A DNA stretch of 64,000 nucleotides from Octopus sinensis (lineage: Eukaryota): the NCBI RefSeq assembly GCF_006345805.1, contig NC_043004.1:96286001-96350000 (forward strand), written 5' to 3'. A program made the position numbers and the translations under genes. Below the pieces are notes generated by a model. That model saw only the letters and a list, made by a program, of their open reading frames with translations. It was not told the DNA's origin and ran no database searches. Of this stretch, positions 660-53,211 are shown one piece after another; within the stretch, counting starts at the first letter, position 1; each line of letters starts with the position of its first letter.

Positions 660-966
660 ATCAAAATAAGCAACAAGGATATCCAGAGATAATGCAGTAC
701 GATCGTTTCATGCAACTCTATTTAATTGAACAATGCAATCATGAGGCAGCATGTTCTTTGTCTATCTCCTTAACTTCTTGGATATTTTAGGTATAATTAT
801 ACTAAGGTGTCCATCTGTTATAATTTAATTAAATTCTGTGTCTTTGTGCAGCTGAAGATTGCACTGCATTTTAAACTGATGTAATGATTGCATTGTTCAA
901 TTAAATGGAGTTGCATGAAACGATCATACTGCATTACTTCTGGATAGCTTTGTTGCTTATTTTGAT
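660..966. mobile_element. Penelope-type inverted terminal repeat with hammerhead-like fold
   Basis: 660-742 is inverted relative to 883-966; right arm runs into a (TA)n tract; contains CTGAAGA...GAAAC-GATC-(G/A)TA. Confidence 0.7.
847..933 (+). ncRNA. degenerate type I hammerhead-like motif
   Basis: Stem I tgcag/ctgca, core CTGAAGA (852-858), stem II tgca/tgca with long insert, GAAAC-gatc-ATA. The left arm (- strand) keeps GAAAC-GATC-GTA-ctgca. Confidence 0.55.
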
Positions 967-1929
967 ATATATTATATATATATATATATAATATAAAATA
1001 AATAAATATAAGAGAGTGGTCACTATATGGCTCACTCTAGCACCAGTTAATCCAAAAGGTTTCAACCACAAAAATACATGTTTCCCATGAAAGTCAGTAC
1101 GATTGTTAGCTCACACGGACAGGGCAAATAAATACATACATACAGATGCTCATCTGGATTCCTATAGTAGTCGCTCTTTACCTCACAGACTTAGTCTTTG
1201 ATAAACATTTTAGAGTGTAAGTTCAAATCATTTGTTTACTAATATATGTTTTCTATGCTGAGCACCTCTTGATCTCCCTTATATGTATATATGAATACAT
1301 GAACACACGCACACAGATTTATATACACACACACACACACACACACACACACATATGTATGTGTGTGTGTGTTAAACATTAATATACTTTCTTGAGAAAC
1401 TTGTAAGTGTAATCAAATGAATGCATGAAAAAAAACTACTTGTTTGAGAAACTAAACATCAGCATGTCCACTGATCAATTGAACTGTAGATAACAAAAAG
1501 GTCCTCCCTAGATAAAGGACCTTGTGAATTTCAAAGCTCATTTTATAAGCATCACCTATTTAAACTTTTAAAGTTTACATGACACATTTTGAACAATCAT
1601 CTAATGTACACAAATATACTGACAAAATATAAGATACATACAAAACTAAAACCTTCATGCACAAAAATTCCTTATAAGCAACATCTAGAAACCATACAAT
1701 AAAACTAATGTCTGGAAACATAATGTCATGAACTGAAGCAAAGGTGCTAGTCACCCTCCTAAAGATAGAAAGTATCTTGCTTTGTGCAACTTTATGTTTT
1801 AGAGGTTTAAATGCTGTTATAGCAACCTGCTAAATATGAAATAGATATTGTAAATAAGTTTATTCTCAAAGCCACCTACTCATATAACAGAAGAGCTGCA
1901 AGGGTTGAACCTATGGGGTTGTGGTGTAA

Positions 1930-3330
1930 TTGTAATCAACAGGTTCCACAACATCAAGTATAAAGCAGCCTGCAAGTTCACTCAATTCATTATCATGAAC
2001 TACTGTCCTTGAATTTTGGGATCTTTCCTCCGGAAGGCCCTAGCTTTAAGCAGACAATTTACCAGCATTATCGACCTTGATGTTGGAATCATTGTGGATA
2101 CTAGGAAGGTTGGTTTCCTGAACATAATACTAGATCTCTAGACATGCAAGTATTGCCTCTGCAAAAAGCCCAATGAAGAAGCTTTTTGTATTTGTTGATA
2201 CTCTAGTTATCTCAAATATATTTAGAAACATAATCATAGATAGCAGCAGAAGAATCTTCAATCTATTGACGAAGTGATAGATTTTCAACAAAGCTGCACA
2301 CCTCTATGAATGCTACTACCCAGGAGAGGCACTGCTAGTAGTTTAGTGCATATCGAGATTCTGTATCTTACACTGAGTGAGTTAGAATGAAAACAATGAT
2401 TCAGTTTAATTCTCTGTGCAATCTATTTATTTCCACTAGTATATCTAGGAGCTTACTCTTTACTCTTTACTCTTTACTCTTTTACTTGTTTCAGTCATTA
2501 GACTGCGGCCATGCTGGAGCAGCACCTTTAGTCGACCAAATTGACACCAGGACTTATTCTTTGTAAGCCCAGTACTTATTCTATCAGTCTCTTTTTGCCG
2601 AACCGCCAAGTGACAGGGACGTAAACACACCAGCATCGGTTGTCAAGCGATGGTAGGGGGGACAAACACAGACACACAAACATATACACACACATACATA
2701 TATACGACAGGCTTCTTTCAGTTTCCGTCTACTAAATCCACTCACAAGGCATTGGTTGGCCCGAGGCTATAGCAGAAGACACTTGCCCAAGATGCCACGC
2801 AGTGGGACTGAACCCGGAACCATGTGGCTGGTAAGCAAGCTACTTACCACACAGCCACTCCTGCGCCTATCTTGAAACAAATCAAAAAGCACTTCCCCAA
2901 TGCCCATAAATACAATAAGTTCTATAATTTCTATAATGTCAAGGTTGATAACTCATGCATAAATAGTATTGCATCTAACATTGCAGGCTAGAACAGAAGA
3001 AAACACTCACCCACAAAGTTTTCACTCTGCTCTCTAACCTGTAACTATACCAGCTCCCCATGGGAAGCATTCAGTCACTGAAAAGATGTGATTCATATAG
3101 CCACCCCTCACACTATCCAATGGCATCATGAGGCATTACATGGGCATGACAGCCAATAGCTTTAAGCTTTGATACACACAACACAAACAATCCTTTAGGT
3201 GTAGGAACAGGAGAAAACTCTACCTCATTGTTCCACACCCTTTGGAGACACAAGAACTATAAAAGAAATTTCACCAACATTAACTGAAGTGTTCCTGATA
3301 GGGTCATTCTTTATTCACTCAATGCTTCTA
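1930..3330 (+). pseudogene. decayed Penelope-like element ORF (RT, thumb, GIY-YIG endonuclease), split by a SINE
   Basis: Broken translations KFTQF.., VGFLNIILDL*TCKY..KKPNEE, IFNKAAHLYE, LKQIKKHFPNAHKYNKFY..VKV..SC, HYMGMTANSFKL*YTQHKQSFR and NSTSL match PLE RT and GIY-YIG motifs; many stops and frameshifts. Confidence 0.85.
2455..2868 (-). mobile_element. SINE family A (tRNA-like head, internal TA/TG microsatellite, CR1-type tail), full length
   Basis: Head GGCGCAGGAGTGGCTGTGTGGTAAG...GGTTCAGTCCC (A/B-box-like) and tail CAGCATGGCCGCAGTC..GACTGAAACAAGTAAAAGAG; >15 copies in window. Confidence 0.92.
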
Positions 3331-3739
3331 GTGAGAAACTGCATATACTCCACTAACCTATCATTCTTTAAAACAATGTAAACTAATCTATGATACGACT
3401 AATTTCCTGAATACTGTTATTATTAATGTTACTTTTATAAAACAGTAGTTAGATATGTTTAGCCTATTATTGTTTTTAAATTTTGAATTTTCATTTTCAA
3501 TTTTCATTGAATTAAAAAAAAAATTATTAATCAATGTTAATATCTGAAAAGATAAAAAAAATGAAACATAAAAATTTTTTCTGTCCACTCATAAACGCAC
3601 CACATATCAAATATCCCTCATGCACACATAGGCATGCACACAGACAAACACAGATGCATACACATATAGAGGAAGAAAATACATTTTTTTCAATAGTAAC
3701 CTGAAGAATATTGATAATCCATAAAAAAAATCTACCCAC

Positions 3740-51049: not shown

Positions 51050-51723
51050 ACATACTAACATTTGATTGGATGCTTGATAAAATCCAAGCCATTGATATGA
51101 AAACCCGAAAAATACTAACAAGCATACATAATTTCCACATAAACAGTGACATAGACCGTCTCAATCTAAAATGAAAACAAAGTGGTAAAACCTGAACATC
51201 GATCCAAATTGTCTTTGAATGTCACATCATATCACTCTGGCAACATATTTTAACAACCAAATGCCGAAGTGTATCCCTTGACCAAAGTTGCATACATGAG
51301 GCTGATAACATCATAAGACTTGGAAGGCAGCTCCTTGAGCAACACTCTTTGTCTGATAACCAAGAATACATGCCCAAAGAAGTCGCACAACTCTACTGCA
51401 ACGTATCATCAGATGAAAGGATGAGCCTATATGAGCAGAAGACTATGTATGGATATGTTAGTAGAAAGCGCCATGATGATAGTAACATCGATCATCAAAG
51501 CAGTTTATCATGGACCAGTAGCTGGATTATTACATCCCACTTTGAAGGATATGCATTTACAATTCAGGAAGAGGAAATATCAACCATGTACCTGATGCAT
51601 AAAAGGGATAGAGATTCAGTTAAAGCTGTAAAGTGTGACAACCGATGCAGAAATTGTGGAGGTCACACTGATGATATCACCCACATCATAAGCAGTTGTC
51701 CAAAAATGTCATCAGGGTATTAC
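51050..51723 (+). pseudogene. R4/Dong-clade (restriction-like endonuclease) LINE remnant
   Basis: IQAIDMKTRKILT..NFHINSDIDRL and EGYAFTIQEEEISTMYL...CRNCGGHTDDITHIISSCPKM (CCHC knuckle preceding RLE); stops present. Confidence 0.8.
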
Positions 51724-51745
51724 ACACAGACACACACACACACAC

Positions 51746-53211
51746 ATATATATATATATATATATCTATGTCTGGTCATGGAGTGACCAATAGTTTTTCA
51801 TTCATAAGGGGACCTAGACCAATGGATGGCTCATCAGACTCTAAAGCCAAGGAATTGGTCACTCTATGACTGGACATAGACTTCACTGCATGTAAATACA
51901 TTACTGCTTTATGCTTTAGAGTGTACTTGTGTTTTGGATATATGATACATTGATGATACATACATGTATCATCAATCACCGTAGGAGCGGCTGTGTTGTA
52001 AGTAGCTTGCTTACGAACCACATGGTTCCAGGTTCAGTCCCACTGTGTGGCACCTTAGGCAAGTGTCTTCTTCTCTAGCCTCGTGCCGACCAAAGCCTTG
52101 TGAGTGGATTTGGTAAACAGAAACTGAAAGAATCCCGTCGCATATATGTATACCAAGAATCACTACTGTTGCTCCCATCGGAACACAAGGTAAAATCTAT
52201 AATGAACTCCTGCACTACACTTGACAAAACAGTAAGGAACGACTTACACCTTATAATATATTTTTCGCCTTTTCAAGAACAAGGATTCTATTGAATGTAT
52301 ATATCATGGACTCTATTGAATGTATGTAACAATTATGAACTATTCCATTATACTCTTTATTATAAAAAAATTCTTTTTGATAAGGTTCGTTATTTCAAGA
52401 ACCGAAACATGTAAAAATTAAAATTTATCTAATATAGTGGCATTTTCAAACTTCTTTTTTACAAATATGTATATATATATATATATATATATATATATCT
52501 ATGTCTGGTCATGGAGTGACCAATAGTTTTTCATTCATAAGGGGACCTAGACCAATGGATGGCTCATCAGACTCTAAAGCCAAGGAATTGGTCACTCTAT
52601 GACTGGACATAGACTTCACTGCATGTAAATACATTACTGCTTTATGCTTTAGAGTGTACTTGTGTTTTGGATATATGATACATTGATGATACATACATGT
52701 ATCATCAATCACCGTAGGAGCGGCTGTATTGTAAGTAGCTTGCTTACGAACCACATGGTTCCAGGTTCAGTCCCACTGTGTGGCACCTTAGGCAAGTGTC
52801 TTCTTCTCTAGCCTCGTGCCGACCAAAGCCTTGTGAGTGGATTTGGTAAACAGAAACTGAAAGAATCCCGTCGCATATATGTATACCAAGAATCACTACT
52901 GTTGCTCCCATCGGAACACAAGGTAAAATCTATAATGAACTCCTGCACTACACTTGACAAAACAGTAAGGAATGACTTACACCTTATAATATATTTTTCG
53001 CCTTTTCAAGAACAAGGATTCTATTGAATGTATATATCATGGACTCTATTGAATGTATGTAACAATTATGAACTATTCCATTATACTCTTTATTATAAAA
53101 AAATTCTTTTTGATAAGGTTCGTTATTTCAAGAACCGAAACATGTAAAAATTAAAATTTATCTAATATAGTGGCATTTTCAAACTTCTTTTTTACAAATA
53201 TGTATATATAT
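51746..53211. repeat. near-identical direct tandem duplication, 733-bp unit
   Basis: Identical ORFs at 51776/52509 and 52100/52833; junctions in (TA)n. Confidence 0.95.
52374..52416 (+). ncRNA. minimal hammerhead-like motif, U3-A8 core variant (duplicate 53107-53149)
   Basis: TTT-TTGATAA-GGTTC-gttatttcaa-GAACC-GAAAC-at-GTA^AAA; perfect 5-bp stem II, palindromic ACATGT stem III, weak stem I. Confidence 0.55.

What the first reader, a model, noticed from the sequence alone, without database searches (positions are those of the whole stretch)
847..53149. Dispersed hammerhead-ribozyme-bearing repeats with apparent covariation of the core 3-8 pair (C-G, A-U, U-A)
Seen: about ten short elements in or next to TA tracts share type I hammerhead topology (stem I, 7-nt core, stem II, GAAA, tiny often palindromic stem III, NUH). 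Sites: 847, 7784, 9016, 11635, 18747, 26693/26738, 27105, 44521, 51781/52514, 52374/53107. Cores read CTGATGA (11686), ATGATTA (both arms at 26.7 kb) and TTGATAA (52377), so positions 3 and 8 stay Watson-Crick complementary in three ways. Established: minimal HHRs occur in Penelope-like-element terminal repeats, and C3-G8 is a tertiary WC pair in the active fold. Inference: several lineages of non-canonical ribozymes may be maintained in this genome and would be missed by CUGANGA-based searches. A decayed Penelope RT/GIY-YIG ORF (1930-3330) points to the likely mobilising family.
Basis: partly seen in the sequence, partly recalled or inferred. Interest (0 to 1): 0.8.

Follow-up and report, generated by a model that had tools for sequence, protein, structure and literature searches.

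The report
Penelope hammerheads with swapped core pair
These are hammerhead ribozyme motifs at the ends of several Penelope-like jumping-gene families, and different families in this one genome have fixed each of the four possible base pairs at a core position long treated as nearly constant, which suggests they likely still fold and cut RNA although none was tested.

Summary
All listed sites are copies of genome-wide families of minimal type I hammerhead motifs, and the 3-8 pair is fixed per family, not copy-specific decay. With positions 3 and 8 left free: A3-U8 in 61 of 72 exact matches, U3-A8 in 40 of 40, never C3-G8. Both motifs sit on the sense strand 3' of Zn-linker GIY-YIG PLE ORFs; the A3-U8 clade nests among U3-A8 lineages. 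Outside the window I found the fourth pair, G3-C8: 5,405 matches, 92 of the first 100 G-C, ending a PLE with intact ORFs. U3-A8 in PLE hammerheads is published (PMC4209133). Natural A3-U8, G3-C8 and A6U families were not found in my searches, but the main survey (Lunse 2017) could not be read. Cleavage is untested. New variant of a known kind.

The parts
26693..26725 (-). A3-U8 minimal hammerhead (core ATGATTA at 26721; 4-bp stem I, 2-bp stem II, stem III decayed from the family palindrome ACCGGT, cleavage triplet GUC); 3' terminal repeat fragment of a Zn-linker PLE family
   Evidence: 92% identical over 117 nt to the 3' end of L041, which carries the GIY-YIG ORF upstream
26738..26770 (+). second, more decayed A3-U8 copy (core at 26742) in inverted orientation; the pair forms the 26615-26836 palindrome
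52374..52416 (+). U3-A8 minimal hammerhead (core TTGATAA at 52377; 3-bp stem I, 5-bp stem II, palindromic stem III ACATGT, triplet GUA); 3' end of a young Zn-linker PLE family
53107..53149 (+). duplicate of the U3-A8 hammerhead in the 733-bp tandem duplication
18747..18784 (+). C3-G8 minimal hammerhead with U at position 6 (core CTGTTGA at 18752, bulged A after A9, no helix III loop); element 18447-18910 is 97% identical to L190, which has an EN remnant about 1.1 kb upstream
27100..27137 (+). decayed copy of the same A6U family (core TTGTGGA at 27105)
7785..7817 (-). decayed C3-G8 minimal hammerhead of the U4/C4 family (core CTGACAA at 7814)
9017..9049 (+).
848..932 (+). C3-G8 hammerhead (core CTGAAGA at 852), long stem II opening with a U-U pair, stem III decayed from ACGATCGT; truncated inverted copy at about 660-742
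11637..11696 (-). C3-G8 hammerhead (core CTGATGA at 11692), related in layout to the 51781 element
44517..44616 (+). C3-G8 hammerhead (core CTGATGA at 44521), family stem III palindrome ACAGCTGT; inverted partner at 44417-44528
51781..51841 (-). decayed C3-G8 hammerhead (core at 51837); duplicated at 52514-52574
51746..53231 (.). 733-bp tandem duplication, 99.7% identical, that doubles two of the listed sites
1905..3102 (+). decayed Penelope/Poseidon-like RT-EN remnant with many stops, interrupted by a dispersed repeat at about 2480-2880; not the lineage that carries the variant cores

Best explanation
The sites are minimal type I hammerhead ribozyme motifs in the 3' terminal repeats of several Penelope-like retrotransposon families, each family is fixed for one Watson-Crick pair at core positions 3 and 8 (C-G, U-A, A-U in the window; G-C elsewhere in the genome), and the parent elements' RNA likely self-cleaves as a dimer, probably helped by the element's own protein. 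Shown: the motifs, their place downstream of RT/GIY-YIG ORFs on the sense strand, the family-level 3-8 states, compensatory changes in stems I and III, and the nesting of A3-U8 among U3-A8 lineages. Inferred: selection on the active fold acts on the transposing parent copies, so a change at 3 persists only with its partner at 8; the palindromic stem III (ACCGGT, ACATGT, AATATT, ACGT) pairs between two copies; genomic copies decay neutrally after insertion into TA tracts.
For: Free-position pattern searches: A3-U8 61 of 72, U3-A8 40 of 40, G3-C8 92 of first 100 of 5,405, with no C3-G8 in any of the three; C3-G8 in 97 of first 100 of 12,964 (A6U family) and 87 of first 100 of 10,645 (U4/C4 family). 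Loci chosen by protein, not by the motif: 20 of 30 A3-U8-clade EN loci show a hammerhead 265-303 nt after the EN match and all 20 read ATGAWTA; 18 of 27 G3-C8-clade EN loci show the motif, all GTGAACA. Alignment of 28 hand-picked natural copies: 3-8 paired in 28 of 28 (U-A 12, A-U 10, C-G 3, G-C 3), all four stem I pairs show two-sided changes, slid controls 26-40% paired against 86%. In the A6U family position 7 takes all four letters (T 51, A 21, C 15, G 13 of 100, counted by eye) while 3, 6 and 8 are fixed, the pattern expected from the hammerhead core. Intact ORFs with RT and GIY-YIG matches, copies 96-99% identical. Same-strand pairs of motifs exist (L351, L354, L355). Literature: PLE min-hammerheads cleave weakly as dimers (PMC4209133); a lizard PLE hammerhead needs the PLE protein and C3G/G8C partly rescues single mutants (PMC11167929).
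Against: No cleavage data; only assembled contigs were available, which cannot show RNA ends. In a full pairwise mutagenesis of a type III hammerhead only the G3-C8 swap rescued, the other core double mutants were low (PMC9901934), so A3-U8 may be slow. The same genome carries huge A6U and U4C families, which could mean relaxed catalysis. Hammerhead mutants did not impair PLE insertion in vitro and no RNA-seq reads ended at the cut site in that study (PMC11167929). Stems are weak: minimum-energy monomer folds did not give the full hammerhead for A3-U8 or U3-A8, and the AATATT duplex is about -0.2 kcal/mol. U3 can pair with A17 in the window's U3-A8 family, a possible inactive trap. None of 19 long loci showed a same-strand motif upstream of the ORF. 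Families are related, so the number of independent switches is small (about four), and the 28-row alignment was chosen by me.
Confidence: 0.7

Rival explanations
1. The hammerhead fold is kept as a structural or protein-binding element of the PLE RNA (for example near the reverse-transcription start), with little or no cleavage; the 3-8 pair is kept for folding while catalytic positions drift.
For: Family-level A6U (99 of 100 U, 0 A) and U4C (66 of 100) in two of the largest families; hammerhead mutants did not affect insertion in vitro (PMC11167929); low activity of PLE motifs (PMC4209133); A6C is slow (PMC3088659).
Against: The 3-8 pair belongs to the catalytically active conformation (PMC3884650, passages read); G5, A9, the GAAA box, U16.1 and a non-G at 17 are kept across families; PLE hammerheads tested so far do cleave.
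Confidence: 0.25
2. The variant cores are copy-specific decay of CUGANGA or chance matches in AT-rich repeats.
For: Most window copies are decayed; the window-only scan is barely above shuffles; 11 of 72 A3-U8 copies have a mismatch.
Against: No C3-G8 copy among 72, 40 and 100 listed matches; reversed-pattern controls 0; two A3-U8 subfamilies with different, compensated stem I keep the same pair.
Confidence: 0.02
3. Founder effect: each family inherited a 3-8 state from one parent copy and the complementarity is luck.
For: Only about four independent double changes are needed; families are related.
Against: Four double changes all landing on a Watson-Crick pair has a rough chance of (1/3)^4, about 0.01 (my simple model); no family fixed for a mismatch was seen among roughly 18 tallied families, although the scans left 3 and 8 free; U3-A8 persists across lineages only 47-61% identical in EN.
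Confidence: 0.05

Closest known systems
Minimal hammerheads (min-HHR) of Penelope-like elements, Cervera and de la Pena 2014 (PMC4209133; main text parts 1-2 of 4 and supplement file 2 parts 1-2 of 3 read)
   Same: Type I topology, short stem I, absent or palindromic helix III, optional extra base after A9, place in PLE terminal repeats, inverted pairs 100-700 bp apart, and a U3-A8 variant (about 1,300 hits in Schistosoma mansoni).
   Different: Their 56-motif alignment, as read in the supplement text, has only C3-G8, U3-A8 (2) and U3-G8 (1) cores with A6; no A3-U8, G3-C8, U6 or C4 entry, and no cephalopod. Here all four pairs occur as families in one genome.
Natural hammerhead core variants, Perreault et al. 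2011 (PMC3088659; section 8 and passages read)
   Same: U3-A8 covariation in nature, 2-bp stem II, U10.1-U11.1 opening of stem II.
   Different: Reports A6C (slow) in one phage; the section read names no A3-U8, G3-C8 or A6U.
PAc Poseidon element hammerhead of Anolis (PMC11167929; passages read)
   Same: PLE terminal-repeat hammerhead; C3G/G8C double mutant partly restores cleavage.
   Different: G3-C8 there is an engineered mutant; here it is the natural state of a family with over 5,000 exact motif matches and intact ORFs.
Small PLE-associated hammerhead variants that cleave as dimers, Lunse, Weinberg and Breaker 2017 (not held; seen only as a citation in PMC6765202, content recalled)
   Same: Very large set of PLE hammerheads with reduced stem III, dimer cleavage.
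   Different: Could not check whether its alignments already hold A3-U8, G3-C8 or A6U; this is the main open point for novelty.

Membership tests
Type I hammerhead ribozyme | Three helices round a core, stem I open | tested here: met
   Descriptor hits and two-sided changes in stems I and III; stem II only 2 bp in A3-U8
Type I hammerhead ribozyme | Core letters CUGANGA and GAAA, UH cleavage site | tested here: not met
   Literal consensus not met by A3-U8, U3-A8, G3-C8, A6U and U4C families; GAAA, G5, A9, U16.1 and H17 are kept
Type I hammerhead ribozyme | Watson-Crick pair between positions 3 and 8 | tested here: met
   28 of 28 chosen copies, four pair types; 61 of 72, 40 of 40, 92 of 100, 97 of 100, 87 of 100 in free-position searches
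Type I hammerhead ribozyme | Site-specific self-cleavage after H17 | not testable with these tools
   Only contigs, no raw reads
Type I hammerhead ribozyme | Score above an Rfam hammerhead model threshold | tested here: not met
   No match at gathering score in L003, L035, L190, L332; none among 150 listed of 233 window matches
PLE minimal hammerhead | Reduced, palindromic helix III suited to dimer pairing | tested here: met
   ACCGGT, ACATGT, AATATT, ACGT are palindromes in 5 of 5 copies folded
PLE minimal hammerhead | Lies in the terminal repeat on the sense strand of an RT plus C-terminal GIY-YIG ORF | tested here: met
   A3-U8, U3-A8 and G3-C8; the G3-C8 ORF has no Pfam hit but aligns with the U3-A8 RT at E 1e-10 and its Atlas look-alikes are RT clusters; A6U rests on one locus, L190
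PLE minimal hammerhead | Tandem repeats that put two motifs on one transcript | tested here: inconclusive
   Same-strand pairs in L351, L354, L355, but no motif upstream of the ORF on the same strand in 19 long loci
Neptune/Nematis-type EN+ PLE | CX2-5CxxC linker before the GIY-YIG domain; TA-tract insertion bias | tested here: met
   Linker seen in ORFs of all three variant lineages; definition from PMC8557442 passages; TA proximity
Neptune/Nematis-type EN+ PLE | Placement in an RT tree with named reference elements | not tested
   No reference PLE proteins were held; clade names are by motif only

The most novel reading that the evidence does not exclude
One animal genome runs a natural mutagenesis of the hammerhead active site: Penelope-like families that spread to thousands of copies use catalytically active cores with all four 3-8 pairs, including natural A3-U8 and G3-C8, plus A6U and U4C, none reported before for A3-U8, G3-C8 or A6U; PLE protein or dimer context makes these cores work, and standard searches miss tens of thousands of ribozymes per genome.
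Probability: 0.35. Interest if true: 0.75.

Novelty: new variant of a known kind. Interest (0 to 1): 0.6.

Why it matters
The 3-8 tertiary pair marks the active hammerhead conformation, and natural covariation was known only as C-G to U-A in the papers I could read. Families fixed for A-U and G-C, with a traceable switch from U-A to A-U on the element tree, are evolutionary evidence that PLE hammerheads are selected for the active fold, which bears on the open question of whether these motifs really cleave in vivo. They give ready natural constructs for testing how context tolerates purine-3 cores and an A6U change, and they show that CUGANGA descriptors and Rfam models undercount ribozymes: three non-canonical or partly non-canonical families alone give about 29,000 exact motif matches here.

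Tried and rejected
Rfam scans gave no hammerhead match. The window-only descriptor scan was near chance. The idea that the ORF at 1930-3330 mobilises the variant families was rejected. The apparent stem I covariation between the two arms at 26.7 kb (TGTC/GACA against TGTT/AACA) is decay of one copy; true stem I covariation comes from the second subfamily. Expression: no RNA holder listed as RNA on record, runs were contigs only, no molecule ends; the four runs laid (organism labels A-D) hold the G3-C8 stretch with no listed alternative letter at 3 or 8, but labels are coded and may not be separate species. No hammerhead was found downstream of several EN lineages (L192, L093, L203, L262-L269, L165, L193, L208). 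Loose antisense hits inside L271-L275 ORFs are chance 12-mers. The careful tree did not finish; quick trees were used; one of 74 labelled loci sets had frameshifted rows (L056, L090) with long branches; labels U3-A8 for L204, L205, L256, L090, L276-L282 and A3-U8 for L283 were read by eye. Literature searches for natural A3-U8, G3-C8 or A6U and for cephalopod PLE hammerheads (the animal group is my guess from repeat content, shown by no call) found none. Lunse 2017, Przybilski and Hammann 2007 and Hammann 2012 were not held; supplement file 1 of PMC4209133 was not searchable and its figure logos are only partly legible. Earlier scan notes: none.
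Full report
Setting. The window is G000:C8:96286001-96350000 in a 2.72-Gb, AT-rich animal genome full of microsatellites. I checked each listed site, then asked for each family what letters stand at core positions 3 and 8 across the genome, what element carries the motif, and what is in print.

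The sites. Every listed site is a type I hammerhead motif or a decayed one. They fall into seven families. 847, 11635/51781 and 44521 are C3-G8 families with longer stem II. 7784/9016 and 18747/27105 are minimal motifs with an extra A after A9 and no helix III loop. 26693/26738 are two inverted copies of an A3-U8 family. 52374/53107 are a U3-A8 motif doubled by a 733-bp tandem duplication that also doubles 51781/52514. On the window alone a strict descriptor is barely above shuffles (4 against 0.9). In 1 Mb of evenly placed stretches it gave 19 hits, 17 with a Watson-Crick 3-8 pair, against 0-2 per shuffle. All 13 cores lie within 142 nt of a TA/CA tract.

The 3-8 pair is a family property. 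Pattern searches of the whole genome with N at 3 and 8 gave A-U in 61 of 72 matches, the other 11 being scattered changes and none C-G, and U-A in 40 of 40. Loci picked by endonuclease similarity give the same answer without selecting on the motif: 20 of 30 show a motif about 265-303 nt after the domain and all 20 read ATGAWTA; 8 show none and 2 show unrelated or weak hits. These belong mostly to a second subfamily whose stem I (TATC/GATA, TGTATC/GATACA) and loop II differ from the window's (TGTC/GACA) while A3-U8 is kept. On 28 natural copies that I chose across lineages, the 3-8 columns pair in 28 of 28 with four pair types; all four stem I pairs change on both sides; slid controls drop to 26-40% paired from 86%. 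Some rows are misaligned in the 3' half, and relatedness inflates the shuffle control.

The fourth pair. The random sample turned up a G3-C8 motif (L093) with a 7-bp stem I, 5-bp stem II and palindromic stem III. Its pattern has 5,405 exact matches; 92 of the first 100 listed are G-C, 8 single mismatches, none C-G. It ends a PLE of a distant lineage: three loci show the endonuclease upstream, and 18 of 27 loci picked by that protein carry the motif 0.7-1.2 kb downstream, several behind open frames of 715-1,042 codons that are 96-97% identical. This ORF has no Pfam hit but aligns with the U3-A8 family's RT. A relative in the same endonuclease lineage (L070) carries a U3-A8 motif. No G3-C8 copy lies in the window.

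Other core variants. The 18747/27105 family has U at position 6: 12,964 exact matches; in the first 100, U6 99, A6 0, C3 99, G8 98, and position 7 takes all four letters. The 7784/9016 family has C at position 4 in 66 of the first 100 of 10,645 matches, with C3-G8 in 87 and most exceptions being G8-to-A at a CpG. The first 100 rows come from the start of contig C1 and were counted by eye.

The carriers. A3-U8 and U3-A8 motifs lie on the sense strand 3' of GIY-YIG domains preceded by a CX4CxxC linker; long open frames match RVT_1 and GIY-YIG. That linker defines Neptune and Nematis elements and is tied to TA-tract insertion (PMC8557442, passages). U3-A8 lineages have intact 770-800-codon frames 99% identical between copies; the longest A3-U8 frame seen is 635 codons, so that family looks older. 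The remnant at 1905-3102 matches a Penelope/Poseidon-like ORF instead and none of the four Zn-linker ORFs.

History. In an endonuclease tree of 74 rows the 29 A3-U8 rows fall in one clade (SH-aLRT 98) inside a clade (99) with two U3-A8 groups, and further U3-A8 groups lie outside. A 24-row RT-EN tree agrees (99 within 98), and holding U3-A8 together is rejected modestly (p-AU 0.0375). Both are quick trees with open basal forks. The simplest reading is U3-A8 to A3-U8 by two transversions, with at least three other double changes elsewhere.

Mechanism. From established knowledge, C3-G8 forms in the active conformation (PMC3884650, passages), PLE motifs cleave weakly as dimers (PMC4209133), and one needs its PLE protein, with C3G/G8C partly rescuing single mutants (PMC11167929, passages). 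I infer that parent elements are selected to keep an active fold and cleave as dimers through the palindromic stem III, while inserted copies decay. Against this: no cleavage data here; in pairwise mutagenesis of a type III hammerhead only the G-C swap rescued (PMC9901934, passages); monomer folds are weak; cleavage was dispensable for insertion in vitro; A6U and U4C families could reflect relaxed catalysis. I give 0.7 to active cores and 0.25 to a conserved but catalytically relaxed fold. That any Watson-Crick pair at 3-8 can support cleavage in vitro (Przybilski and Hammann 2007) is recalled, not read.

Novelty. U3-A8 is published in nature and in PLEs (PMC3088659 section 8; PMC4209133). The 56-motif alignment in the latter's supplement has no A3-U8, G3-C8, U6 or C4 core. 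Seven searches for such natural variants found none; two further papers checked by passage (PMC6155905, PMC7936874) and two reviews (PMC6765202, PMC8495972) add nothing on them. The library lacks Lunse et al. 2017, the largest survey of these motifs, so priority is unsure. Verdict: a real feature, a new variant of a known kind, interest 0.6.

Noticed in passing
L093:8991-9042 (-); L332:961-4563 (+): G3-C8 hammerhead family outside the window, 5,405 exact matches, at the 3' end of a young PLE with an intact 839-codon frame and a microsatellite-rich 3' region.
   Followed up: yes
window 18747-18784, 27100-27137; L190: A6U hammerhead family with 12,964 exact matches and free position 7; carrier shown by one EN remnant only.
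   Followed up: partly
   Followed up: partly
window 848-932; L194, L259, L261: Two C3-G8 families open stem II with a U-U pair at family level, a variant noted in PMC3088659.
   Followed up: partly
L240:2307-2347, L222, L241: In the second A3-U8 subfamily stem-loop II is itself nearly self-complementary and pairs between copies in a two-strand fold, so dimers might swap helix II as well as helix III.
   Followed up: no
A3-U8, G3-C8 and U3-A8 families: Position 17 avoids a Watson-Crick partner for position 3 in A3-U8 (C17) and G3-C8 (U17), as G17 is avoided with C3, but the window's U3-A8 family has A17.
   Followed up: no
L203, L262-L269: An EN lineage with no recognisable hammerhead in 1.5-2.8 kb downstream; either a further variant core or loss.
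   Followed up: no
window 51746-53231: 733-bp tandem duplication at 99.7% identity bounded by microsatellites; recent duplication or assembly artefact.
   Followed up: partly
L175:2848-5220: Six identical C3-G8 hammerheads in 535-bp tandem units on both strands, a layout suited to dimer cleavage.
   Followed up: no
window 12352-12651 and at least ten other places; 33820-34369 and 36680-37229: Abundant dispersed SINE-like repeat family and a 250-bp tandem unit with tRNA-like start; a reverse-transcriptase-like fragment at 10094-10525 (-).
   Followed up: no
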